From NCBI GenBank assembly GCA_964016885.1, contig OZ024740.1:116374001-116438000 (forward strand): a DNA stretch of 64,000 nt, in the 5' to 3' direction. Below, one piece after another: positions 4,709 to 64,000 of the stretch. Within the stretch, counting starts at the first letter, position 1; every line of letters starts with the position of its first letter. This stretch comes from Eledone cirrhosa (taxonomy: Eukaryota). Under the pieces are notes generated by a model. That model did not search any database. It saw nothing but the letters and a program-made list of their open reading frames with translations, and had not been told where the DNA came from. Position numbers and translations under genes: made by a program.

Positions 4709-4796
<88 letters not shown>

Positions 4797-4799
4797 ATA

Positions 4800-4867
<68 letters not shown>

Positions 4868-4974
4868 GTATATAATTATGTATATATATATATATATATA
4901 TAATTTATATAGATATGTATATGTATATATATAATTTATATGTATATAAATGTATATGTATATAAATGTATATA

Positions 4975-5053
<79 letters not shown>

Positions 5054-5054
<1 letters not shown>

Positions 5055-5233
5055 ACGAAGGAAGTGTGGTAAGGAGCCAGGTGGACCATAACGCACCAGA
5101 GTACTCGATACTTTGGGTAGTAGAGTGGGTAATAGGAAAAGAGTCAGGACCCCGACTCAAGCCGTTTCGACAGCTACTTCAGAAATAGCTGTCGAAACGG
5201 CTTGAGTTCTGCTGTCGGGATTCTGACTTTTTT

Positions 5234-5237
<4 letters not shown>
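5054..5237. mobile_element. Hairpin element family H, copy 2
   Basis: Same long arm (GTGGTAAGGA..GGACCATAACGCACCAGAGTACTC) and a palindrome centred on CAGCTACTTC-A-GAAATAGCTG. Flanked by (TA)n. Confidence 0.85.
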
Positions 5238-5322
<85 letters not shown>

Positions 5323-6071: not shown

Positions 6072-6387
6072 ATGTATGTATGTATGTATGTATATATGTA
6101 TGTATGTATATGTATATATATATATATATAAGCAAAAGGGATATTCAATTTGTTGATAATTCAACAAATATAAATGTTTATAACTGATTCAGAGCACTCA
6201 ACAAGTTTTCTGGAGTATAATATTCAATGATATGCAATGATATTTCATCTGATGAAAGCGTACCAAAGTTTTGGTACCCTTGAAATATATATAATAGAAT
6301 AAATATGGTTTTATAAATATAGTTTCCATTTATTAAATATCATTGAATATATGTATATATATATATTTATGTATATGTATATATATA

Positions 6388-6476
<89 letters not shown>

Positions 6477-6722
6477 ATATATATACTTATATATATGTAT
6501 GTATGTATATGTATGTATATATGTATATATAAGTGCTTATATATATATATGTGTGTATATATATGTGTGTGTGTATCCGCTGCTTCTACTGGAATCCGCT
6601 AGACGGCGCTGGTCGTCAATCTTTCAATATTCATAGCTAGACTTTAAAAATGTTTATTTATTAAACACACCCTATATCTTTAGATATATGAAATTCACAT
6701 ACATTTCTATAGACAGCTATAT

Positions 6723-6784
<62 letters not shown>

Positions 6785-7100
6785 ATGTATGTATGTATGT
6801 ATGTATATATGTATGTATGTATATGTATATATATATATATATAAGCAAAAGGGATATTCAATTTGTTGATAATTCAACAAATATAAATGTTTATAACTGA
6901 TTCAGAGCACTCAACAAGTTTTCTGGAGTATAATATTCAATGATATGCAATGATATTTCATCTGATGAAAGCGTACCAAAGTTTTGGTACCCTTGAAATA
7001 TATATAATAGAATAAATATGGTTTTATAAATATAGTTTCCATTTATTAAATATCATTGAATATATGTATATATATATATTTATGTATATGTATATATATA

Positions 7101-19499: not shown

Positions 19500-19545
19500 T
19501 CTTTCTTCTGATGAAGGACTAGCGTCCGAAACATTAAAACCCTCT
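19500..19545 (+). ncRNA. Minimal PLE-type HHR-like motif
   Basis: CTGATGAA-GGAC tagc GTCC-GAAACATTA. Stem II is clear; stems I and III are weak. Confidence 0.45.
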
Positions 19546-28570: not shown

Positions 28571-28776
28571 TAGTTATGTAATAAACAACATAAGATAATT
28601 ATTTCATTTACCAGTGGTTTCTTGAAGACAGATATTTATGTCTGTCTTCATTCATCAGAAGAAAATTTATTTATAAATAAATGTTCTTCTGATGAATGAA
28701 GACAGACATAAATATCTGTCTTCAAGAAACCACTGGTAAATGAAATAATTATCTTATGTTGTTTATTACATAACTA
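28571..28776. repeat. ~206-bp near-perfect palindrome with a hammerhead on each arm
   Basis: 103-bp arms with one mismatch and no spacer. Plus 28684-28744: TTCTT-CTGATGA-A-TGAAGACAGA..TCTGTCTTCA-A-GAAA-CCACTGGT-A-AATGAA. Confidence 0.85.
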
Positions 28777-30391: not shown

Positions 30392-30440
<49 letters not shown>

Positions 30441-30444
<4 letters not shown>

Positions 30445-31113
30445 TATGTATACGTACATACATATATGTATACAGACGTACAGTAGTATGCATATACATA
30501 CATACATGCACACATATATATATATATGTACGTATGGGTTTACCAAACATTTATTATAATGTTTGGTTTGTTTGTAAACAAACAGCCCGAATTAAGCCGT
30601 ACAGTGTTCGGCAACCATCGTTTCCCTTTTGTTCAACTCTGACAAAGGAACGATGAACTAGTTTCTAGCTAATTAGCAGTCATCAGCACCATATACCTTC
30701 CTATCAGTCGATTGAACGTTTGAAAGTATATACTTTCCTTATGCATATTAACGGCTGAGCAACCTAATTTGCATATCGAGTGAGTTAGTCGGCCGGGCGT
30801 ACCGAAAACGATAAAAGGAAAAAATGAAATTTCATTTCTCACTCTTAGTACGGCTGATACTTAATATAAGTATGTATACGTACATACATATATGTATACT
30901 GACGTACAGTAGTATGTTATACATACATGCACACATATATATATGTACGTATGGGTTTACCGAACTTTTATTATAATGTTCGGTTTGTTTGTAAACAAAC
31001 AGCCCGAATTAAGCTGTACAGTGTTCGGCAACCATCATTTCCCTTTTGTTCATGTCGGGCTGTTTGTTTACAAACAAACTGAACATTATAATAAATGTTC
31101 GGTAAACCCATAC

Positions 31114-31174
<61 letters not shown>

Positions 31175-31292
31175 CATGTATGTATGTATATACATACTAC
31201 TGTGCGTCTGTATACATATATGTACGTATACATACTTTTATTTAAGTATCAGCCGTACTAAGAGTGAGAAATGAAATTTCATTTTTTCCATT
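30441..31292 (-). mobile_element. Retrozyme-like element R2 (~426-bp unit, ~1.4 copies plus an inverted arm)
   Basis: Homologous to the 59-64 kb array unit. HHR on minus 30650-30692; octamer ATTTGCAT at 30767-30774; inverted copy ~31055-31292; TA flanks. Confidence 0.8.
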
Positions 31293-31669
31293 TATATATA
31301 TATACATATATATATATATATACTCATTAAAACAAACAGAAGGCCAGACTGGAAACTTTCTTCAAAACCTTAATTCCAAGTAAACACTATTTATATTTCA
31401 ATGGCCCAGTTTAATCATCCGATCATGATGCAAAACCTAGACGATTTCAACAGGTGTTGATTGCAGAATTAGTTATAGAAGATAACAGTGCTAGGGCGAA
31501 CACAAACAGAGAATAGAAAATAGAGGATAGATTTGGTTCCGGGATTGTTCCCTAGCCGTACATTACAGGGATGTACAGTGAGATACAGTGTGACAAGTTT
31601 GGCTTTTTGAATCACATGTGTAACTCATTTTTTTTTTCTAGCTAAGTAAATTCGAGCAATGTGAAATAA

Positions 31670-39689: not shown

Positions 39690-40258
39690 AATCAACGGTA
39701 GCACTAACAGTGTTTAAGCATAAGAGAGGTGTATATGGAGACATGTAGAAACATATATAATACGTTTATATGCAATAAACTTATGGTTAGCTTCGCAACC
39801 GAAGAAAAATATTTTTCCGTAACGAAACGAAAACGAAACAAAGATATTTCTGTTTTTCTCTATTTTCTATATGAATATATCAAACATTTGCCAGTATATT
39901 CTGATAGTGTTAGACGACGATGTTTCAAGATTTGTTAATCTTTCATCAGTGACACTCACTCAAAATATACAGGCATAGAATAGACTATAGTCTATATAGA
40001 ATTTTGCATGATGATCACTTGCTGCAGATGATCATTTATATATAGCAAATAGAAATCACCGACTGAAAGTAGTCATTTGTGTATAGTGCAAGCTTGGCTG
40101 GTTATATTTAATTGGCTGTATCATTTAGACAGAGTTTAAGCATAATAGAGGTGTATATGAAGACTTATATAAACATATAGAATACGTTTATATACAATAA
40201 ACACATGTGTAGCCTCACTGCCGAAAAAATATTTTTCGTAACGAAACGAAAACGATTA
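39690..40258 (-). mobile_element. Retrozyme-like element R4 (~422-bp unit, ~1.3 copies)
   Basis: Direct repeat at 39712/40134. Minus HHR 39906-39956: AGTGTCA-CTGATGA-AAGATT aaca AATCTT-GAAAC..GTC-TAACACT. Near-octamer TTTTGCAT at ~40002. TA flanks. Confidence 0.65.
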
Positions 40259-47989: not shown

Positions 47990-49158
47990 ACGTCCGAACG
48001 AGTGTCCTCCACCTCCACCTATCTTACCTTCCGCCTCATGGTTTCGCACGACATTGCCCTGGAGGATGTTCACACGATCAGAGTAGGTTCAGTTGTGTTG
48101 TGGAGAATACTGTTGACGAGGACACGGTAAGAGGTCACCGACGAAAGGAAAGCAGACATGGCTAGTGTGACTCGAGACCGAAGACTGAGGCCACCATGTC
48201 AGACGGGTAACGTGACCTATTACCATCCGGTGTATTCAAACGGGACGTTGCATATCTCCCCAGCAGTCCGTCGAATGCAAACGGGAAGATCTGTAGGGGA
48301 GAGAGGATTTGCTGTAGCAGGAGGTACTGTAGAAGATGTATAGGAGCTGTAGCATGGTGAAGCAGTTCCTCGACCGACAGACTGCCGGGTGGGCATCATT
48401 CAGGTTCAGTTTACTCGTCAGGATTTCTAGCTGGCGTAGCGGAAGTAGCGGTGAACCTAGGATGAAGACATATTCATTAGGGGTCACCTGCACCTGATAG
48501 GGTAATGTTCGCACGTCTGAGACAGAGGCCGCGAAGCCATCATGATTGACGCTCACGACCTCCGACTTGGATGAGTTGATCACGAGGGCGATCTTCGCGA
48601 TCTTCGCCAAAGCGGCAACAACTGATTGGAGATCGTGACAGACACTCTTTGCGGGCCCGTCTATCTTAGCATCATCCATATACCAGACGTTGAGAGAGGC
48701 GGTGATGCTCCGAGCAAGGCTGTCTGTCACGAGAGTGAAGAAAAGGGAAACCAATGGATCACCCTGTTGGATACTGGTTGAGGATTGTATTATCTTGTCT
48801 GCAGTGAGGATCATGCTCAGGGACCCGTATAACATGTAGGCCACTGTGCAGGTGGACGGGGCACGGCTGAGGCAAGCCTCAAGCAACTGATTTCAGCGAA
48901 GACAGTTAAAGGCGTTTCTCATGTCAAGCTTGACGATGAGATGTCTGAAATCATTCGGCGCCGGCTCAGGAGGACAGTCGTTGATGAACTGTCTAGCGGT
49001 GAGGGCGATTGCCTCGCACCCGCTGGCCACGCCAGCCCCCAGCTGCACTAGGCTGAGTTTCTCGCCTAGTTCGGGTGGGACAGACTTACAGATGATCTTA
49101 GCACCAAGCTCTGGAAGACATTTCTTGCTGCGATGGGACGTATTCCACCGTCTTTATT
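47990..49158 (-). pseudogene. Non-LTR retrotransposon RT fragment, CRE-like clade
   Basis: NKDGGIRPIAA; VQLGAGVASGCEAIALTARQFI; VKLDMRNAFNCLR; IQQGDPLVSLFF; LNVWYMDDA; ILGSPL; LPV*HGGLSLR. GC-rich relative to flanks, with stops. Confidence 0.82.
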
Positions 49159-52489: not shown

Positions 52490-52547
52490 AACTATATATA
52501 TATTATATTATATAATATATATATATAATATATATAATATATATATA

Positions 52548-52578
<31 letters not shown>

Positions 52579-52686
52579 ATATTATATAATATATATATAT
52601 AATATATATAATATATATATAATATATAATATATATTATATTATATAATATATATATAATATATATAATATATATATAATATATAT

Positions 52687-52718
<32 letters not shown>

Positions 52719-53291
52719 ATATATATATATAATATATATATATACATATATATATATAATATATATAATATATATACATATATAATATATATAATATGTA
52801 ATATATAAATATATATAATATATATATATAATATATAATATATATACATATATTATATATATATATAAATAATATATATATATATATACATATATTATAT
52901 ATATATATAATATATAATATATAAATAATATATATATATATACTTATATTATATATATATATAATATCTAATATATAAATAATATATATATATATATACA
53001 TATATTATATATATATATAATATATAATATATAAATAATATATATATATATAATATATAAATAATATATAAATAATATATATATATATAAATAATATATA
53101 TATATATATAATATATATATATATATATAATATATAAATAATATATATATATATATATAATATATAAATAATATATATATATAATATATAATATAAATAT
53201 AATATATATATAAATAATATATATTTATAATATATAAATAAATAATATATATATATATATAATATATAAATAATATATATATATATAATAT

Positions 53292-53336
<45 letters not shown>

Positions 53337-53832
53337 ATATATATATAATATATATATAATATATATATAATATATATATATATATAATATATATATAATA
53401 TATATAATATATATATATATATATATAATATATATATAATATATATATAATATATATATAAATATATATATATAATATATATATATATATAATATATAAT
53501 ATATATATAATATATATATAATATATATAATATAATATATATATAATATATATATAATATATATATATATAATATATAATATATATAATATATATATATA
53601 TATATATAACCAACTTCTTAAATGGAAGTTGATCAATATTTATGGTACGTCAAATTTATTTATAAAACTGCTTATATATTGTATTTTATCTGAAGAAGGC
53701 ATGCCATATTTTTAATATGGTATCCCTGAAATATGTATAATGAAATAGATATGGTTTTATAAATATAGTTTCCATTTGTTTAATATCGTATATATAATAT
53801 ATATATATAATATATATATAATATATATATAT

Positions 53833-53886
<54 letters not shown>

Positions 53887-54339
53887 ATATATATATATAA
53901 TATATATATAATATATATATAAAATATATATATAATATATATATAAAATATATATATAATATATATAATATATATATAAAATATATATATAATATATATA
54001 ATATATATATAATATATATATATAATATATATATAATATATATAATATATATATATAATATATATATAATATATATATATATATAGTATATATAATATAT
54101 ATAATATATATATATAATATATATAATATATATATATATAATATATATAATATATATATATATAATATATATAATATATATATATATATAATATATATAA
54201 TATATATATATAATATATATAATATATATATAATATATATAATATATATATAATATATATATATATAGTATATATAATATATATAATATATATATATATT
54301 ATATATAATATATATATATATAATATATATAATATATAT

Positions 54340-54371
<32 letters not shown>

Positions 54372-54404
54372 ATATATATATATAATATATAATATATATA
54401 TATA

Positions 54405-54469
<65 letters not shown>

Positions 54470-54794
54470 TATATATAATATATAAATATAATATATATAT
54501 ATATAATATATAATATATATATCTAATATATAATATATATATATAATATATACATAATATATATATATATATATATATAATATATATATATATATAATAT
54601 ATATATAATATATATTATATAATATATATATATATATAATATATATATAATATATAATATATATATATATATAATATATATATATAATATATATATATAT
54701 AATATTATATATATATATTATATATAATATTATATATATATAATATATATTATATATATATTATATATATAATATATATATATATAATATATAT

Positions 54795-54828
<34 letters not shown>

Positions 54829-54837
54829 AATATACAT

Positions 54838-54868
<31 letters not shown>

Positions 54869-54883
54869 ATATATATATATAAT

Positions 54884-54915
<32 letters not shown>

Positions 54916-54930
54916 ATATATATATATAAT

Positions 54931-55000
<70 letters not shown>
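52490..55000. repeat. Long degenerate (TA)n/(TATATAA)n tract, interrupted at 53609-53790; similar tracts at 56280-56785 and 58200-59280
   Basis: Almost pure A/T, with short TA runs punctuated by AA. Confidence 0.9.
53609..53790 (+). mobile_element. Family L HHR element; HHR at 53682-53747
   Basis: TATTTTAT-CTGAAGA-AGGcATGCCATATT ttt AATATGGTATcCCT-GAAA-TATGTAT-A-ATGAAATA. Confidence 0.8.
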
Positions 55001-55003
<3 letters not shown>

Positions 55004-55318
55004 GATATTAAACAAATGGAAACTATATTTATAAAACCATATTTATTTCATTAACTTTTTTAATGGAAGTTGAACAATATTCATGGTACGTCAATTTTAT
55101 TTATAAAACTGCTTATATATTGTATTTTGTCTGAGGAAGGCATGCCATATTTCTAATATGGTATCCCTGAAATATGTATAATGAAATAAATATGGTTTTA
55201 TAAATATAGTTTCCATTTGTTTAATATCGTATATCTACTCCAATACTTGTTGAGTGCTTTATATCAGTTATAAAATATTTATTCGTTGTAACCCAACAAT
55301 TTTAAATAAAACTTTTGC
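55001..55318 (+). mobile_element. Family L HHR element with an inverted 5' arm (55001-55052); HHR at 55123-55188
   Basis: CTGAGGA core with the same stem II as 53690. The left arm is the reverse complement of ~55179-55231. Confidence 0.8.
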
Positions 55319-55340
55319 ATATATATATATATATATATAT

Positions 55341-55385
<45 letters not shown>

Positions 55386-55391
55386 TAATAT

Positions 55392-55422
<31 letters not shown>

Positions 55423-55473
55423 AATATATAAATATATATATATATATAAATATAATATATATATATATAATAT

Positions 55474-55545
<72 letters not shown>

Positions 55546-55551
<6 letters not shown>

Positions 55552-56278
55552 CAAATAACGAAACGAAATTAAATTTCGTTTCGCTTCTAACTCACTTTTG
55601 TATGACTGACGCTTAAACAATTAAGTTAAAGTGTACATCTACATATGTATACGGAAGTATTAGTATGCATATAAATACACACATGTATACATATGTACAT
55701 GTACTGAGTTTTTCACTAGACACTTTACAGTGAGTGTCAGCTAGTCTATATTTACTCATAATAATACTTCCGTATACATATGTAGATGTACACTTTAACT
55801 TAATTGTTTAAGCGTCAGTCATACAAAAGTGAGTTAGAAGCGAAACGAAATTTAATTTCGTTTCGTTATTTGTTTTTATCGTTTCCGCTGAACCGGTGCG
55901 TACAATGACTCACGTTCTATGCAAATTAGTCTACCCACTACTAATTTTCATAGAAAAAGCATATAACGCTATGTGCTTTTACAATTCTCCAGAGAAGCCG
56001 GAAGATGGGTAAATATTGCTGATGAGATGTAATAACATCGAAACTAGTCCAATATTCCTGTCTGGCCCTCTGTAGAATAGAGGAAATGTGTTTCCTTGAA
56101 AACTCGTATGACTCTAAAACCCGGTCCGTCTGTGTGGTTACATACAGACTAGCTGACACTCACTGTAAAGTGTCTAGTGAAAAACTCAGTACATGTACAT
56201 ATGTATACATGTGTGTATTTATATGCATACTAATACTTCCGTATACATATGTAGATGTACACTTTAACTTAATTGTTT
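55546..56278 (+). mobile_element. Retrozyme-like element R3 (469-bp unit plus an inverted 5' arm)
   Basis: Terminal direct repeat at 55762/56231; inverted arm 55546-55749; octamer at 55919-55926; TA flanks. Confidence 0.85.
56012..56056 (+). ncRNA. Canonical minimal type I hammerhead ribozyme
   Basis: AATATTG-CTGATGA-GATGT aata ACATC-GAAA-CTAGT-C-CAATATT. Stem I is 7 bp, stem II 5 bp, stem III the palindrome ACTAGT. GUC site with predicted cleavage after 56049. Confidence 0.92.
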
Positions 56279-56519
56279 ATATATATATATATATAATATA
56301 TATATAATATATATATATATAATATATAATATATTTATAATATATATATATATAATATATATATATATAATATATATAATATATATATAATTTATAATAT
56401 ATATATAATATATAATATATATATAATATATAATATATATATAATATATATATATTATATATTATATATATATAATATATATATAATATATATATATATA
56501 ATATATATATAATATATAT

Positions 56520-56552
<33 letters not shown>

Positions 56553-56784
56553 ATATATATATAATATATATATAATATATAATATATATATATATATAAT
56601 ATATATATATATATATAATATATATATATATAATATATATATATATATAATATATATATATATATAATATATATATATATATAATATATATATATATATA
56701 TAATATATATATATATATAATATATATATATAATATATATATATATAATATATATATATATAATATATATATATATAATATATA

Positions 56785-58200
56785 GATTGGTGTGTACAAT
56801 CTTGTGATGTCCCAATGCGGTGACTTCATGGCTCTTGAAGCTATTTTTTATATATCTTTTGTCTTTTTATACATCTTCTGTATGCGCTCCAACTGTGTCT
56901 GCTTGCTTTGGCTAACCCGCCTGCACCTCGCTTGCTACTGCACGTGAATTCTCCTACCTTCCTTCGATGCACCTCTGTTTGACCATTGGACTCCTGCCCG
57001 GGTGTGAACCGGTTTGTGATTACCCCACCGCTCAACTGTGTGAATGCACACCCGTGACTTTCGAGTGAACTTTTGAGACTGCCCAACCTGGGACGCCTCC
57101 ATTGCCTGCAATGGTCAAGTGATACTGGTGACTGTGACACTTAGTGCCTTCGTGGGCCCCTGATATTTTCAAGAAATATATTTTTTTTAAAAAATGGTCA
57201 AGTGATACAGATAACTGTGACACTTAGTGCCTTCGTGGGCCCTGATATATTCAAGAGATATATTCTAAAAAAATATATATCTTATCTCAATTTACTTTAT
57301 TTCATTTTATTTTATTTCATTTCATTTTATTTAATTTTATTTATTTACTTATTTAATTTCATTTATTTATTTATTTATTTACTTATTTATTTATTTATTT
57401 ATTTATTTAAATTTAATTTTAATTTTAATTTTATTTATTTATTTAATTTTATTTATTTATTTATTTATTTATTTAATTACATTTGATTATATCTTATATT
57501 ATATTATTTTACTTTAGTCTATTTTATTTTATTTTAGTTTACCTTATTTTATCTTATTTTATGATTATATTATATTATATTCTATTTTATATAATTTTCA
57601 TTTTAATTTTATATTATTTTATTTCATTCCTTACCCTGTATCAATATTATCTGTATATTTTATATTTTATATGTAAGTTTGTTATATATTTTTTTATATT
57701 TTCTTATATATATTATAAGTCTGTTTTTCACCTATTTTTTACCTACTCTTACCTAATCCTATCTATCTTATCTACTCTTGTCTGTTCTCTTATCCATGTG
57801 TATGCTTGTATGTAACTATATGTTGACAGCACCCCGCCCAACTGTGACTGATAGCACCCCTTATTTTTCATTGTTTATTTTATTATTTTTATTTTTACTT
57901 TTATTTTTATTTTTATTCTTATTTTTACTTTTACTTCCTTAATATCCTTTATCTTCTATTATTTTTCATTCTTCAATGTCTTGGATTTGTTATTGCTTGT
58001 ATGGTATGTAATTAACCTTTATGCTCTGATGAGTCTCACTTATAGTGCGGATGAAACAATGTTAGCAAGTAAAGATATGCATATGCTATAGGCGTTCTTT
58101 GTTATTTATTATATCACGGCTCTGTCCTCAGACATCGAGCTAACCTTATACTGCCTGCTGGATAAGTGGAGTGTTATACACCCCTGATCCTCTCCCTAGT
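56785..58200 (+). mobile_element. Non-coding ~1.4-kb insert in TA tract with a 3' HHR-like motif (58022-58067)
   Basis: TGCT-CTGATGA-GTCTCAC ttata GTGcGGAT-GAAA-CAATGT-T-AGCA. Internal ~65-bp duplication at ~57110/57192. Confidence 0.55.
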
Positions 58201-59146: not shown

Positions 59147-59398
59147 ATATATATATATATAATATATATATATATAATATATATATATATAATATATATA
59201 TATAATATATATATATATAATATATATATATAATATATATATATATAATATATAATATATATATATATAATATATAATAAATTGAAACAAAATGAAAACG
59301 AAATTTCATTTCTCACTCTTAGTATGGCACTTACTTAAATGTAAGTATGCATGTATACGTACATACATATATGTATACAGACGTACAGTAGCATGCAC

Positions 59399-59435
<37 letters not shown>

Positions 59436-59873
59436 TATACATATGCATACAGGTACACATACATATATGCACGTATCAGTTTAGCGGCGCTAACGTCGCT
59501 TTGTTCGTTTGTAAACAAACTGAACAGCCTGAATTTATGCCATACGGTGTTAAGGCAACCACGTCACCTTTTTGTTCAACACTGACACAGGAACGATGTA
59601 CTAGTTTCAAGCTTGTTAGCTATCATCAGCACCGTTTACCCATCTGCCAGATAGTTGAACGTTCGAAAGTATATACTTTCCTTATGAAAATTAACGGCTG
59701 AGCAGCCTAATTTGCATATTGAGTGAGTTAAATCGGTTAGGCATACCGAAAACGATAAATTGAAACAAAATGAAAACGAAATTTCATTTCTCACTCTTAG
59801 TATGGCACTTACTTAAATGTAAGTATGCATGTATACGTACATACATATATGTATACAGACGTACAGTAGCATG

Positions 59874-59915
<42 letters not shown>

Positions 59916-60353
59916 TATACATATGCATACAGGTACACATACATATATGCACGTATCAGTTTAGCGGCGCTAACGTCGCTTTGTTCGTTTGTAAACAAAC
60001 TGAACAGCCTGAATTTATGCCATACGGTGTTAAGGCAACCACGTCACCTTTTTGTTCAACACTGACACAGGAACGATGTACTAGTTTCAAGCTTGTTAGC
60101 TATCATCAGCACCGTTTACCCATCTGCCAGATAGTTGAACGTTCGAAAGTATATACTTTCCTTATGAAAATTAACGGCTGAGCAGCCTAATTTGCATATT
60201 GAGTGAGTTAAATCGGTTAGGCATACCGAAAACGATAAATTGAAACAAAATGAAAACGAAATTTCATTTCTCACTCTTAGTATGGCACTTACTTAAATGT
60301 AAGTATGCATGTATACGTACATACATATATGTATACAGACGTACAGTAGCATG

Positions 60354-60405
<52 letters not shown>

Positions 60406-60836
60406 TATACATATGCATACAGGTACACATACATATATGCACGTATCAGTTTAGCGGCGCTAACGTCGCTTTGTTCGTTTGTAAACAAACTGAACAGCCT
60501 GAATTTATGCCATACGGTGTTAAGGCAACCACGTCACCTTTTTGTTCAACACTGACACAGGAACGATGTACTAGTTTCAAGCTTGTTAGCTATCATCAGC
60601 ACCGTTTACCCATCTGCCAGATAGTTGAACGTTCGAAAGTATATACTTTCCTTATGAAAATTAACGGCTGAGCAGCCTAATTTGCATATTGAGTGAGTTA
60701 AATCACTGAGTGGTTGCCTTAACACCGTATGGCATAAATTCAGGCTGTTCAGTTTGTTTACAAACGAACAAAGCGACGTTAGCGCCGCTAAACTGATACG
60801 TGCATATATGTATGTGTACCTGTATGCATATGTATA

Positions 60837-60880
<44 letters not shown>

Positions 60881-61036
60881 CATGCTACTGTACGTCTGTA
60901 TACATATATGTATGTACGTATACATGCATACTTACATTTAAGTAAGTGCCATACTAAGAGTGAGAAATGAAATTTCGTTTTCATTTTGTTTCAATTTATC
61001 GTTTTCGGTATGCCTAACCGATTTAACTCACTCAAT

Positions 61037-61044
61037 ATGCAAAT
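61037..61044 (+). promoter_or_regulatory. Octamer ATGCAAAT, one per R1 unit; candidate snRNA-type distal element
   Basis: Exact octamer 88 nt upstream of the HHR core. Conserved in R2 (30767) and R3 (55919). Confidence 0.55.
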
Positions 61045-61117
61045 TAGGCTGCTCAGCCGTTAATTTTCATAAGGAAAGTATATACTTTCGAACGTTCAAC
61101 TATCTGGCAGATGGGTA

Positions 61118-61162
61118 AACGGTGCTGATGATAGCTAACAAGCTTGAAACTAGTACATCGTT
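61118..61162 (+). ncRNA. Minimal type I hammerhead in each R1 unit (plus cores 61125, 61605, 62089, 62571, 63053, 63539; minus 59592-59636, 60072-60116, 60562-60606)
   Basis: AACGGTG-CTGATGA-T-AGCT aaca AGCT-T-GAAA-CTAGT-A-CATCGTT. Stem I is 7 bp, stem III palindromic, GUA site. Confidence 0.88.
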
Positions 61163-61318
61163 CCTGTGTCAGTGTTGAACAAAAAGGTGACGTGGTTGCC
61201 TTAACACCGTATGGCATAAATTCAGGCTGTTCAGTTTGTTTACAAACGAACAAAGCGACGTTAGCGCCGCTAAACTGATACGTGCATATATGTATGTGTA
61301 CCTGTATGCATATGTATA

Positions 61319-61360
<42 letters not shown>

Positions 61361-61798
61361 CATGCTACTGTACGTCTGTATACATATATGTATGTACGTA
61401 TACATGCATACTTACATTTAAGTAAGTGCCATACTAAGAGTGAGAAATGAAATTTCGTTTTCATTTTGTTTCAATTTATCGTTTTCGGTATGCCTAACCG
61501 ATTTAACTCACTCAATATGCAAATTAGGCTGCTCAGCCGTTAATTTTCATAAGGAAAGTATATACTTTCGAACGTTCAACTATCTGGCAGATGGGTAAAC
61601 GGTGCTGATGATAGCTAACAAGCTTGAAACTAGTACATCGTTCCTGTGTCAGTGTTGAACAAAAAGGTGACGTGGTTGCCTTAACACCGTATGGCATAAA
61701 TTCAGGCTGTTCAGTTTGTTTACAAACGAACAAAGCGACGTTAGCGCCGCTAAACTGATACGTGCATATATGTATGTGTACCTGTATGCATATGTATA

Positions 61799-61844
<46 letters not shown>

Positions 61845-62282
61845 CATGCTACTGTACGTCTGTATACATATATGTATGTACGTATACATGCATACTTACA
61901 TTTAAGTAAGTGCCATACTAAGAGTGAGAAATGAAATTTCGTTTTCATTTTGTTTCAATTTATCGTTTTCGGTATGCCTAACCGATTTAACTCACTCAAT
62001 ATGCAAATTAGGCTGCTCAGCCGTTAATTTTCATAAGGAAAGTATATACTTTCGAACGTTCAACTATCTGGCAGATGGGTAAACGGTGCTGATGATAGCT
62101 AACAAGCTTGAAACTAGTACATCGTTCCTGTGTCAGTGTTGAACAAAAAGGTGACGTGGTTGCCTTAACACCGTATGGCATAAATTCAGGCTGTTCAGTT
62201 TGTTTACAAACGAACAAAGCGACGTTAGCCCCGCTAAACTGATACGTGCATATATGTATGTGTACCTGTATGCATATGTATA

Positions 62283-62326
<44 letters not shown>

Positions 62327-62764
62327 CATGCTACTGTACGTCTGTATACATATATGTATGTACGTATACATGCATACTTACATTTAAGTAAGTGCCATAC
62401 TAAGAGTGAGAAATGAAATTTCGTTTTCATTTTGTTTCAATTTATCGTTTTCGGTATGCCTAACCGATTTAACTCACTCAATATGCAAATTAGGCTGCTC
62501 AGCCGTTAATTTTCATAAGGAAAGTATATACTTTCGAACGTTCAACTATCTGGCAGATGGGTAAACGGTGCTGATGATAGCTAACAAGCTTGAAACTAGT
62601 ACATCGTTCCTGTGTCAGTGTTGAACAAAAAGGTGACGTGGTTGCCTTAACACCGTATGGCATAAATTCAGGCTGTTCAGTTTGTTTACAAACGAACAAA
62701 GCGACGTTAGCGCCGCTAAACTGATACGTGCATATATGTATGTGTACCTGTATGCATATGTATA

Positions 62765-62808
<44 letters not shown>

Positions 62809-63246
62809 CATGCTACTGTACGTCTGTATACATATATGTATGTACGTATAGATGCATACTTACATTTAAGTAAGTGCCATACTAAGAGTGAGAAATGAAA
62901 TTTCGTTTTCATTTTGTTTCAATTTATCGTTTTCGGTATGCCTAACCGATTTAACTCACTCAATATGCAAATTAGGCTGCTCAGCCGTTAATTTTCATAA
63001 GGAAAGTATATACTTTCGAACGTTCAACTATCTGGCAGATGGGTAAACGGTGCTGATGATAGCTAACAAGCTTGAAACTAGTACATCGTTCCTGTGTCAG
63101 TGTTGAACAAAAAGGTGACGTGGTTGCCTTAACACCGTATGGCATAAATTCAGGCTGTTCAGTTTGTTTACAAACGAACAAAGCGACGTTAGCGCCGCTA
63201 AACTGATACGTGCATATATGTATGTGTACCTGTATGCATATGTATA

Positions 63247-63294
<48 letters not shown>

Positions 63295-63732
63295 CATGCT
63301 ACTGTACGTCTGTATACATATATGTATGTACGTATACATGCATACTTACATTTAAGTAAGTGCCATACTAAGAGTGAGAAATGAAATTTCGTTTTCATTT
63401 TGTTTCAATTTATCGTTTTCGGTATGCCTAACCGATTTAACTCACTCAATATGCAAATTAGGCTGCTCAGCCGTTAATTTTCATAAGGAAAGTATATACT
63501 TTCGAACGTTCAACTATCTGGCAGATGGGTAAACGGTGCTGATGATAGCTAACAAGCTTGAAACTAGTACATCGTTCCTGTGTCAGTGTTGAACAAAAAG
63601 GTGACGTGGTTGCCTTAACACCGTATGGCATAAATTCAGGCTGTTCAGTTTGTTTACAAACGAACAAAGCGACGTTAGCGCCGCTAAACTGATACGTGCA
63701 TATATGTATGTGTACCTGTATGCATATGTATA

Positions 63733-63776
<44 letters not shown>

Positions 63777-64000
63777 CATGCTACTGTACGTCTGTATACA
63801 TATATGTATGTACGTATACATGCATACTTACATTTAAGTAAGTGCCATACTAAGAGTGAGAAATGAAATTTCGTTTTCATTTTGTTTCAATTTATCGTTT
63901 TCGGTATGCCTAACCGATTTAACTCACTCAATATGCAAATTAGGCTGCTCAGCCGTTAATTTTCATAAGGAAAGTATATACTTTCGAACGTTCAACTATC

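What the first reader, a model, noticed from the sequence alone, without database searches (positions are those of the whole stretch)
55546..56278. R3: textbook hammerhead whose stems covary with R1, R2 and R4
Seen: stem I is AATATTG/CAATATT (R3), AACGGTG/CATCGTT (R1) and ATGGTG/CATCGT (R2). Stem II is GATGT/ACATC (R3), AGCT/AGCT (R1) and AAGATT/AATCTT (R4). The core is invariant, and R1-R3 also share ACTAGT. The context is homologous (AGATGGGTAAA before, TTCCTGT after). The insert is one 469-bp unit plus a short terminal redundancy, at a different circular permutation from R1 and R2. Inference: selection has maintained the ribozyme fold, and permuted monomer-plus copies fit a circular or multimeric RNA template.
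Basis: partly seen in the sequence, partly recalled or inferred. Interest (0 to 1): 0.75.

Follow-up and report, generated by a model that had tools for sequence, protein, structure and literature searches.

The report
Hammerhead retrozyme copy in TA repeat
A 733-base insert in a TA-repeat tract is a head-to-head copy of a 469-base non-coding repeat with a hammerhead (self-cutting RNA) motif. It belongs to the already described "retrozyme" class of small animal retroelements and was likely pasted in by a Penelope-like reverse transcriptase.

Summary
The motif is real.

Across 23 distinct family copies, 93% of pair cells are paired, against 31-47% when partners are slid. Nine of 21 pairs show compensatory double changes.

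The 469-bp unit is real. It forms period-469 arrays elsewhere, and the exact 45-nt ribozyme occurs 901 times in this 3.0-Gb genome. About 40,000 family hammerheads exist.

The insert's anatomy was misread. It is an inverted, 5'-truncated arm of about 204 nt plus a forward arm of about 531 nt (1.13 units).

R1, R2 and R3 are collinear homologues (58-63% identity). They share the same two 3' termini, so R3 is not differently permuted. R4 belongs to an older, unrelated repeat family.

3' ends are fixed, 5' ends vary, inserts sit in (TA)n, and orientation switches are always head-to-head. A roughly 70-nt tail sits at one end only. These are the published hallmarks of Penelope-like element (PLE) integration, and PLEs abound here.

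Verdict: a new family of the known animal non-LTR retrozymes. This scan has reported the kind before on other DNA. RNA circles, cleavage and the partner element remain untested.

The parts
52493..55544 (.). Left flank: (TA)n tract with extra-A interruptions. It is the target microsatellite and holds two older minimal-hammerhead elements at 53690 and 55131.
   Evidence: TRF. Flank polarity is the same on both sides of R3 and R1. Hammerhead hits.
55545..55748 (-). Inverted, 5'-truncated arm of the R3 unit. It runs from phase p70 (outer 'tail' 3' end) back to p336 and contains no hammerhead.
   Evidence: Outer end reads (TA)n|ATAAAAACAAATAACGAAACGAAAT.
55561..55583 (-). Tail hairpin (10-bp stem GAAACGAAAT/ATTTCGTTTC) next to the outer end of the inverted arm. 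It is followed by a T-rich run.
   Evidence: Sequence. The same block lies at 55842-55864 (+). It is conserved between R1 and R3.
55749..56279 (+). Forward arm of 1.13 units. It runs p407 to p469, then p1 to p469(+1), and ends at the 'body' 3' end ...AATTGTTTA|(TA)n.
   Evidence: The canonical monomer is 55810-56278.
55919..55926 (+). ATGCAAAT inside the best-conserved block outside the ribozyme (ATATGCAAATTAG ... TAATTTTCATA ... ATATA). A promoter role is only a guess.
   Evidence: Alignment of six natural monomers.
55998..56011 (+). 5' strand of the closing helix that extends helix I, with the conserved GGUAAA internal loop.
   Evidence: pairs 10-14/74-78 and 20-21/69-70. MFE fold.
56012..56056 (+). 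Type I hammerhead. Helix I is 56012-18/56050-56. CUGAUGA is 56019-25. Helix II with loop is 56026-39. GAAA is 56040-43. The palindromic ACUAGU (helix III) is 56043-48. The predicted cut is after C56049.
56057..56065 (+). 3' strand of the closing helix.
56280..56784 (.). Right flank: (TA)n with the same extra-A polarity as the left flank.
59277..60704 (-). R1 array, inverted arm of 2.97 units (480 bp each). The outer end is the tail-type 3' end.
60707..64000 (+). R1 array, forward arm. It continues to 65267 beyond the window and ends at the body-type 3' end next to (TA)n.
30435..31295 (-). R2: an older head-to-head insert of an R1-like subfamily. Its forward arm (30435-31052 on the minus strand) is 83-89% identical to its closest subfamilies and ends at the body end next to (TA)n. 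Its inverted arm is about 31055-31295. Helix II is decayed.
39913..39949 (-). R4: a decayed hammerhead in a different, older dispersed repeat family.

Best explanation
R3 is a dead-on-arrival copy of a young 469-bp non-coding retroelement of the animal non-LTR retrozyme class, and it was likely installed by the reverse transcriptase-endonuclease of a resident Penelope-like element (PLE).

SHOWN.
- The unit carries a type I hammerhead whose helices covary.
- The unit forms head-to-tail arrays and hundreds of dispersed inserts that are 98-100% identical.
- Inserts sit in (TA)n. Their 3' ends lie at two phases about 70 nt apart: 'tail' (T) and 'body' (B). Their 5' ends vary.
- Orientation switches are always head-to-head.
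- In head-to-head inserts one arm ends at T and the other at B.

INFERRED.
- Source arrays are transcribed into multimers.
- Paired hammerheads would cut at GUC. The 6-nt palindrome ACUAGU can form an intermolecular helix III.
- Monomers may be ligated into circles.
- A PLE enzyme cuts a TA repeat. Both exposed 3'-OH ends would prime cDNA on UUUA-containing sites of a multimeric or circular RNA (twin priming).
- The two cDNAs are joined at arbitrary 5' points.

The window copy has a single hammerhead. It could not release a unit-length RNA by itself.
For: RIBOZYME.
- The core and stems are as quoted.
- HH9-like match at 31.8 bits, E = 1.8e-6.
- On 23 distinct copies, 93.2% of 483 cells are paired, against 31-47% when partners are slid.
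- 9 of 21 pairs have double changes. The covariation score is 0.409 against 0.03-0.10 slid, and 0 of 500 shuffles reach it.
- Helix III is the palindrome ACUAGU, with a duplex energy of -4.8 kcal/mol. This matches the published animal type I architecture (PMC4209133 passages).

FAMILY.
- The R3 probe gives 1392 first-look candidates. 42 matches were returned, 40 of them full-length at 99-100%.
- The exact 45-nt ribozyme occurs 901 times against 0 in the control.
- There are 40,322 family hammerheads against 2 in the control.
- R1 and R3 units are collinear at 58-63% identity, and subfamily units span 422-486 nt.
- GC is 35-37%, and no open frame exceeds 103 aa.
- Monomers fold with z = -9.7 and -10.0. 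Helix I plus its extension closes the molecule.

INSERTION SIGNATURE.
- 3' ends cluster at p465-469 and p68-72, while 5' ends are scattered.
- Orientation switches within 1 kb are '- then +' in 12 of 12 cases (one search list) and 7 of 7 cases (one search list). None is '+ then -'.
- Head-to-head inserts are T/B in 10 of 12 and in 5 of 10 simple solo head-to-head cases. The R1 array and R2 are also T/B. That totals 17 T/B against 1 T/T.
- Flanks on both sides have the same strand polarity, so the tract pre-existed the inserts.

PLE LINK.
- GIY-YIG gives 10,596 candidates, and all 150 scored pass the cut-off.
- A 1096-aa frame resembles RVT_1 + GIY-YIG clusters.
- A resident PLE family also ends in TA repeats at two 3' ends about 50 nt apart.
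- Published PLE traits match: 5' truncation, partial tandems, an inverted truncated copy, a tail at one end, and microsatellite bias (PMC8557442 passages).
- Retrozymes have been argued to be PLE derivatives (Li et al. 2026 preprint, sections read; PMC7229834 discussion).
Against: - No PLE sharing the R-type hammerhead, tail or any unit sequence was found. I checked 22 PLE loci, and 20 solo-copy loci plus 264 kb around the window. The partner is therefore unidentified, and a LINE enzyme is not excluded.
- The motif does not reach any Rfam gathering score.
- Helix III is too short for an efficient single ribozyme. R1 also has a U-U mismatch at the first helix II pair. Activity is therefore assumed, not shown.
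- Units within long arrays differ as much (mean 1.0-5.2 of 469 nt) as units between arrays (mean 3.1-6.2). This gives no support to copying of one circle per array.
- Most double changes trace to one split between the R1 and R3 groups. The number of independent events is therefore small.
- Six head-to-head inserts have an atypical end, and one (L023) is T/T with inverted flanks.
- The T/B calls for one search are my reading of printed ends.
Confidence: 0.72

Rival explanations
1. The element is the same retrozyme but is mobilised by a LINE-type (non-PLE) reverse transcriptase. The head-to-head inserts would arise by classical twin priming at AT-rich nick sites.
For: - Head-to-head inversions with variable inner junctions and 5' truncation are also what twin priming by LINE-1 gives (recalled knowledge, not from a call).
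- An RVT_1-like fragment lies in the window at 48236-48892.
- No PLE partner was found.
Against: - None of the 3' ends printed carries a poly(A) or other LINE-like tail.
- A 70-nt tail at one end only, (TA)n targeting and tandem-plus-inverted structures are described for PLEs (PMC8557442).
- A resident PLE shows the same two-ended 3' pattern in TA repeats.
- PLE endonuclease domains are very abundant here.
Confidence: 0.13
2. The element is ordinary satellite DNA spread and amplified at the DNA level (unequal crossing-over, or extrachromosomal circles that re-integrate). The hammerhead would be a passenger.
For: - Long arrays of 30 or more units exist.
- Within-array and between-array divergence are alike.
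- Segmentally duplicated copies occur, for example the two identical triplets 17.7 kb apart.
Against: - Hundreds of dispersed short inserts share two fixed 3' ends and have variable 5' ends.
- Orientation switches are head-to-head in 19 of 19 cases.
- Compensatory changes show selection on the RNA fold.
- Re-integrated DNA circles would open at random phases at both ends.
Confidence: 0.07
3. The element is a foldback or MITE-like DNA transposon. On this view the ~133-bp inverted ends of R3 (rising to 137 bp at 99% where the arms overlap more) are terminal inverted repeats recognised by a transposase.
For: R3 has near-perfect inverted termini: 55614-55754 against 56139-56279 at 99%, and a 334-bp palindrome at its left end.
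Against: - Inner junctions differ in every copy.
- Many copies are single-orientation.
- The two outer ends are not the same sequence (T against B).
- Copy length ranges from 0.9 to 30 or more units.
Confidence: 0.03

Closest known systems
Animal non-LTR retrozymes (Cervera and de la Pena 2020, PMC7229834: abstract, passages and discussion read; Li, Clavereau and Pollet 2026 preprint, 10.64898/2026.07.22.740005: abstract and two result sections read)
   Same: Type I hammerhead, head-to-tail non-coding repeats, low GC, high copy number, co-existence with PLEs, and a proposed cycle of multimeric transcript, self-cleavage, circle and reverse transcription.
   Different: The unit (422-486 nt) is longer than the 170-400 nt RNAs of the 2020 paper, though inside the 51-972 bp range of the preprint. 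This family's sequence matched nothing in the scan's notes. No RNA data exist here. In the parts of those papers I read, I did not see the strict head-to-head rule or the T/B asymmetry quantified. Their supplements were not seen.
Penelope-like elements and their pseudo-LTR hammerheads (Cervera and de la Pena 2014, PMC4209133; Craig et al. 2021, PMC8557442; passages read)
   Same: 5' truncation, partial tandems, an adjacent inverted truncated copy, an extension ('tail') at one end only, microsatellite (TA)n bias, and hammerheads with a tiny palindromic helix III.
   Different: There is no RT or GIY-YIG reading frame, so the element is non-autonomous. The tail is about 70 nt rather than 30-40 bp. 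No sequence similarity to the 22 PLE loci sampled was found.
Classical hammerhead satellites: newt satellite 2, Schistosoma Sm-alpha, cave-cricket pDo500 (names recalled; the newt case is mentioned in PMC7229834)
   Same: Tandem repeats of a few hundred bases transcribed into self-cleaving RNAs that need paired ribozymes.
   Different: Those were described as satellites before the retrozyme concept existed.
Plant LTR retrozymes (Cervera et al. 2016, PMC4918200; search listing and abstract only)
   Same: Non-autonomous elements, hammerhead-processed, with proposed circular RNA intermediates.
   Different: Per PMC7229834, plant elements have type III hammerheads in LTRs, a PBS and PPT, and 4-bp target duplications. 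PMC7229834 suggests mobilisation by Gypsy elements. R3 has a type I hammerhead and no LTR arrangement.
Rfam Hammerhead_HH9 (RF02275, clan CL00010)
   Same: Best-scoring model. It shares the core, the helix I internal loop and helix II.
   Different: Scores 31.8 bits against a gathering score of 52. Helix III of the model is absent (5 positions deleted in the alignment).

Membership tests
Animal non-LTR retrozyme | Type I hammerhead with conserved core (CUGANGA ... GAAA ... UH) and helices I and II | tested here: met
Animal non-LTR retrozyme | Head-to-tail tandem units, non-coding, low GC | tested here: met
   Period-469 arrays. Longest open frame 84-103 aa, GC 35-37%.
Animal non-LTR retrozyme | No LTR, PBS or PPT | tested here: inconclusive
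   No LTR-like arrangement was seen. PBS and PPT were not searched for specifically.
Animal non-LTR retrozyme | Expressed as unit-length linear and circular RNA | not testable with these tools
   No RNA holder was listed. The runs laid were contigs of unknown kind.
Animal non-LTR retrozyme | Co-occurrence with Penelope-like elements in the same genome | tested here: met
Canonical animal type I hammerhead (as described in PMC4209133) | Helix I about 6 bp, helix II about 4 bp, helix III 1-2 bp capped by a small palindromic loop | tested here: met
   Helix I is 6-7 bp, helix II is 4-5 bp, and helix III is A-U (plus C-G) around the palindrome CUAG.
Canonical animal type I hammerhead | Self-cleavage, efficient only as a dimer | not testable with these tools
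   Only the ACUAGU duplex energy was computed.
Rfam hammerhead families (CL00010) | Score at or above the curated gathering threshold | tested here: not met
   No hit at gathering. Best score is HH9 at 31.8 against 52 bits.
PLE-type insertion (Craig et al. 2021) | 5' truncation, partial tandems, adjacent inverted 5'-truncated copy | tested here: met
   Orientation switches are head-to-head in 19 of 19 cases.
PLE-type insertion (Craig et al. 2021) | Extension (tail) at one end only; microsatellite target | tested here: met
   17 T/B against 1 T/T head-to-head inserts, with (TA)n flanks. The tail is 70 nt here against the published 30-40 bp.
PLE (autonomous element or direct derivative) | RT + GIY-YIG reading frame, or sequence homology to a resident PLE's terminal repeat | tested here: not met
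   The unit has no such frame. There is no similarity to 22 PLE loci. No PLE coding sequence is arranged consistently beside any of 20 solo copies. Five loci hold PLE fragments, on either strand and at differing distances. The sample is small compared with more than 10,000 PLE copies.
Plant LTR retrozyme | Type III hammerheads within LTRs | tested here: not met
   The open helix is helix I, so the ribozyme is type I. No LTRs.
MITE / foldback DNA transposon | Both termini fixed, constant length, target-site duplication | tested here: not met
   Variable 5' ends, inner junctions and lengths. Duplications cannot be read in (TA)n.

The most novel reading that the evidence does not exclude
The head-to-head inserts are fossils of a coordinated two-ended priming step. 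After a Penelope-type enzyme breaks a TA repeat, the two DNA ends prime on two different UUUA sites 70 nt apart on one multimeric or circular retrozyme RNA. Every double insert therefore carries the tail on exactly one arm. If so, this young 40,000-copy family would be a natural read-out of the still unknown PLE integration mechanism.
Probability: 0.25. Interest if true: 0.55.

Novelty: new member of a known kind. Interest (0 to 1): 0.3.

Why it matters
Hammerhead retrozymes are a known source of small circular RNAs in animals. How they move is unsettled, and PLEs are the favoured but unproven helper.

This genome offers a very young family with many copies: 901 identical ribozymes, and inserts that are 98-100% alike. 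Their ends can be read cleanly.

They show two fixed 3' ends, head-to-head arms and a tail on one arm only. That is useful comparative material for working out PLE-type integration. It also gives a candidate for testing ribozyme-made RNA circles.

The window copy itself is an ordinary dead insert.

Tried and rejected
- RNA evidence. The look-up of sequencing runs listed no RNA holder. The second laid only contigs of unknown kind from three coded organisms, and one run gave nothing. This gives no verdict on expression, cleavage or circles.
- Partner PLE. blastn of six natural monomers against 22 PLE loci gave only low-complexity hits. tblastn with nine PLE frames against 20 solo-copy loci plus the 264 kb gave no consistent adjacency.
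- Window ORFs of 150 aa or more are mostly microsatellite frames. The only family hit is a weak RVT_1 match.
- Taxon. The atlas gave only 'Arthropoda or Chordata' for a PLE protein. I left the organism unnamed.
- Scan notes. There were none for this genome or sequence.
- One circle per array. Within-array and between-array differences are similar, so nothing was learned either way. In L021 all four measured units, from both arms, are 465 nt against 469 nt elsewhere, which fits one event.
- RNAalifold paired the core CUG with UAG. I replaced this with the named hammerhead structure for counting.
- Cofolding two 81-nt ribozyme segments was not informative.
- The candidate at 19508 has no GUH after GAAAC, and I dropped it as chance.
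- Before alignment A1 I dropped four distinct copies whose 5' side is cut by a junction or deletion (L002:2791-2880, L018, L053, L056) and six further R3 variants that differ only in the outermost flank (10 of 33 in all).

Full report
WHAT IS AT THE COORDINATES.

Window 55546-56278 lies between two (TA)n arrays. At 56012-56056 on the + strand the sequence reads AATATTG CTGATGA GATGT AATA ACATC GAAA CTAG TC CAATATT. This is a type I hammerhead.
- Helix I is open and 7 bp long.
- The core is CUGAUGA...GAAA.
- Helix II is 5 bp with loop AAUA.
- The cleavage triplet is GUC, ending at 56049.

Rfam gives nothing at gathering scores. In E-value mode Hammerhead_HH9 scores 31.8 bits against a threshold of 52, with E = 1.8e-6. 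The model's helix III is deleted in that alignment.

Helix III here is only A-U (plus C-G) around CUAG, which gives the 6-nt palindrome ACUAGU. Cervera and de la Pena (2014, PMC4209133, passages) describe this as the usual animal architecture. They report helix I of 6 bp, helix II of 4 bp, and helix III of 1-2 bp with a small palindromic loop. Such ribozymes cut poorly alone and are thought to act as dimers in tandem transcripts.

IS IT MORE THAN CHANCE?

- The loose pattern CTGATGA-N6-30-GAAAC has 16 matches in the window against 0.18 expected.
- A stricter scan of my own over 264 kb (the window plus 100 kb on each side) finds 38 hammerhead-like sites. Five mononucleotide shuffles gave 0, 0, 0, 0 and 1.
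- Several families are present, and most have a palindromic helix III (CUAG, UAUAUA, UGCGCA, UACGUA).
- Genome-wide, CTGANGA-N14-GAAACTAGT occurs 40,322 times against 2 for the reversed control.
- R3's exact 45-nt ribozyme occurs 901 times against 0 in the control.

COVARIATION.

I aligned 23 distinct natural copies of the R1/R2/R3 superfamily, 90 nt each. Ten of the 33 distinct copies found were left out. Four are cut on the 5' side by a junction or deletion. Six are further R3 variants that differ only in the outermost flank.

On the named hammerhead structure plus its closing helix (21 pairs, 483 cells), one search gives the following.
- 93.2% of cells are standard pairs, against 31-47% when the 3' partners are slid by 1-3 columns.
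- 9 pairs have changes on both sides.
- The covariation score is 0.409, against 0.03-0.10 when slid, and no shuffle of 500 reaches it.
- Examples: helix I 26-66 is CG, UA or UG. Pair 27-65 is GC or AU. Pair 28-64 is UA, AU, GU or UG. Helix II 40-49 is GC or UA. Pair 41-48 is CG or GC. Pair 39-50 is AU or UA.
- Core positions never vary, except the free N7.

One caveat applies. Most double changes separate the R3 group (9 rows) from the R1 group (14 rows), so the number of independent events is small. Even so, seven pairs changed compensatorily on that one split, and further switches occur inside each group.

THE UNIT AND THE FAMILY.

The unique part of R3 has 1392 first-look candidates in the 3.0-Gb genome. 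One search returned 42 matches, 40 of them full-length at 99-100% identity. Many lie in arrays with a period of exactly 469 bp.

R1 (480-486 bp) and R3 (469 bp) are collinear over the whole unit at 58-63% identity. Intermediate subfamilies have units of 422-466 bp.

The units are non-coding: the longest open frame is 84-103 aa, and GC is 35-37%.

The units are strongly structured: -147.4 and -164.3 kcal/mol, with z = -9.7 and -10.0. Helix I and its extension close the whole molecule, which brings the two cleavage ends together.

R4 is not part of this family. It sits in an older dispersed repeat with at least 808 candidates at 75-84% identity. Better-preserved copies there have a better helix I.

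R2 is an old, partly decayed insert of an R1-like subfamily.

ANATOMY OF THE INSERT.

Mapping against the canonical monomer (window 55810-56278, phases p1-p469) gives two arms.
- An inverted arm at 55545-55748, running from p70 back to p336.
- A forward arm at 55749-56279, running p407 to p469 and then a full unit.

This explains both the 334-bp palindrome at the left and the 99% inverted repeat between 55614-55754 and 56139-56279.

The inverted arm lacks the ribozyme. The locus therefore has one hammerhead and cannot release a unit-length RNA on its own.

TERMINI ACROSS COPIES.

I examined 30 loci, which represent 22 independent sites.
- Outer ends that are 3' ends fall at two places.
  - 'T' is at p68-72: ...hairpin GAAACGAAATTTAATTTCGTTTC, then GTTATTTGTTTTTAT.
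  - 'B' is at p461-469: ...AACTTAATTGTTTA.
- 5' ends and inner junctions are scattered (p4, 36, 50, 91, 201, 332 and many others).
- The ribozyme cut site is at p240, and none of the mapped 3' ends lies there.

The R1 array in the window has the same plan. Its T-type end is at 59277. It runs 2.97 units on the minus strand to an inner junction at 60705-60706, then runs forward to a B-type end at 65267. R2 is also the same.

So R1, R2 and R3 share homologous ends rather than differing in permutation.

Twenty solo copies, sampled by ribozyme pattern from several subfamilies, show the same two end types, nearly always next to TA repeats (ends read by eye).

HEAD-TO-HEAD RULE.

Among the first 100 listed places of R3's exact ribozyme, all 12 strand switches within 1 kb are '- then +' and none is '+ then -'. 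The same holds for 7 of 7 in the family list.

Among head-to-head inserts with both ends in view:
- 10 of 12 have one T arm and one B arm.
- 5 of 10 simple cases do too. An eleventh locus, L088, is too complex to class.
- So do the R1 array and R2.

That totals 17 T/B.

One insert (L023) is T/T, and its flanks are also inverted copies of each other. Six inserts have an atypical end. Two more (L026, L030) were flagged '-+' by the script, but only through short self-complementary stretches, and I count them as single-orientation.

Single-orientation inserts use T and B about equally (about 10 T against 6-7 B). An unlinked choice of ends would therefore rarely give 17 mixed pairs.

The flanks on both sides of R3 and R1 carry the same strand-specific interruptions. 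ATAATA outnumbers TATTAT 35 to 3 on R3's right flank, 71 to 0 on R1's left flank and 36 to 0 on R1's right flank. R3's short left flank gives 6 to 0, plus six ATAAATA against one TATTTAT. The TA tract from 52.5 to at least 66 kb therefore pre-existed the inserts, and each inversion is internal to its insert.

LINK TO PENELOPE-LIKE ELEMENTS.

Craig et al. (2021, PMC8557442, passages) describe PLE insertions as follows.
- They are highly 5'-truncated.
- They are often partial tandems.
- They often have an inverted 5'-truncated copy next to them.
- They carry a 30-40-bp tail at one end only.
- They are biased to microsatellites, including (TA)n.

All five traits are seen here, although the tail is about 70 nt.

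The genome has 10,596 GIY-YIG candidates, and all 150 scored are above the cut-off. It also has long RT-EN frames. One resident PLE family with a GUAC-loop hammerhead in its 3' region ends at two alternative points about 50 nt apart, next to TA-rich repeats in two of three copies.

Cervera and de la Pena (2020, PMC7229834, discussion) proposed PLEs as the likely helper of animal retrozymes. Li et al. (2026 preprint, sections read) argue that retrozymes derive from PLE terminal repeats.

I could not find the partner here. There is no similarity between six natural monomers and 22 PLE loci. No PLE coding sequence is arranged consistently beside 20 solo copies. That sample is tiny against the number of PLE copies.

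MECHANISM.

Shown:
- a conserved, covarying ribozyme;
- multi-unit inserts;
- fixed 3' ends and variable 5' ends;
- a TA target;
- the head-to-head rule with T/B asymmetry.

Inferred:
- transcription of arrays;
- dimer-mode cleavage at GUC;
- possible ligation to circles;
- nicking of TA repeats by a PLE enzyme;
- priming from both DNA ends on UUUA-containing sites of an RNA longer than one unit (both T and B sites read TTTA just before the boundary);
- joining of the two cDNAs.

Circle versus linear multimer is open. Units within long arrays differ as much as units between arrays. In L021 all four measured units, from both arms, are 465 nt against 469 nt elsewhere, which fits one event per insert.

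RNA-level tests were not possible.

NOVELTY.

The kind is known, and this scan has reported it before in other genomes. This family and its clean end statistics are new material, not a new principle.

Noticed in passing
window 55910-55970 (R3) and the homologous part of R1, e.g. 61510-61570: This is the best-conserved block outside the ribozyme. It reads ACTCAC...ATATGCAAATTAG...TAATTTTCATA...ATATA and lies 55-110 nt upstream of the hammerhead. It contains a perfect ATGCAAAT octamer and a TATA-like run. It could be an internal promoter, but nothing here tests that.
   Followed up: no
L086 (G000:C1:54000-63999), insert at 4711-5273: This copy of an R3-like subfamily is flanked by (GAT)5 on the left and (CAT)6 on the right. 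The two microsatellite flanks are reverse complements of each other, while the unique DNA beyond them is not. With palindromic (TA)n this could never be seen. It may say something about how the ends are made.
   Followed up: no
L023 (G000:C2:116987950-116991209), 1293-2412: This head-to-head insert has tail-type ends on both arms, and its flanks (AATCTCTCTATAT / ATATAGAGAGATT) are inverted copies of each other. The whole site therefore looks like an inverted duplication rather than a twin-primed insert.
   Followed up: partly
window 58026-58063 (+): This is a further hammerhead of another family, with a helix II of about 7 bp, a GUU site and helix I AGCA.../...UGCU. It lies between TA arrays. 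Near-identical motifs lie in two PLE-containing loci (L080 at 602, L081 at 8985).
   Followed up: partly
window 28609-28730, 53690-53739, 55131-55180, 6249-7006, 13507, 29229: These are minimal hammerheads with long helix II and palindromic helix III (UAUAUA, UAUGUA), of the kind described for PLE terminal repeats. Two of them (53690, 55131) lie in the same TA tract as R3. The pair at 28617(-)/28689(+) is head-to-head.
   Followed up: no
G000:C1:55970574-55971601 and 55988244-55989271: Two identical triplets of R3 ribozymes (-, -, +, same spacings) lie 17.7 kb apart. This is probably a segmental duplication that carried an insert along.
   Followed up: no
G000:C1:127665661-127682180 and C1:5738327-5752443: These are very long arrays. 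One has at least 35 R3 units of 469 bp after a 3-unit inverted arm. The other has about 31 units of a 466-bp subfamily, followed by an inverted copy. They are candidate source loci for multimeric transcripts.
   Followed up: no
coded runs X2, X3, X6: Contigs from three differently coded organisms hold the unit at 90-99% likeness, at very high depth in one of them. Relatives or other individuals therefore also carry this family.
   Followed up: no
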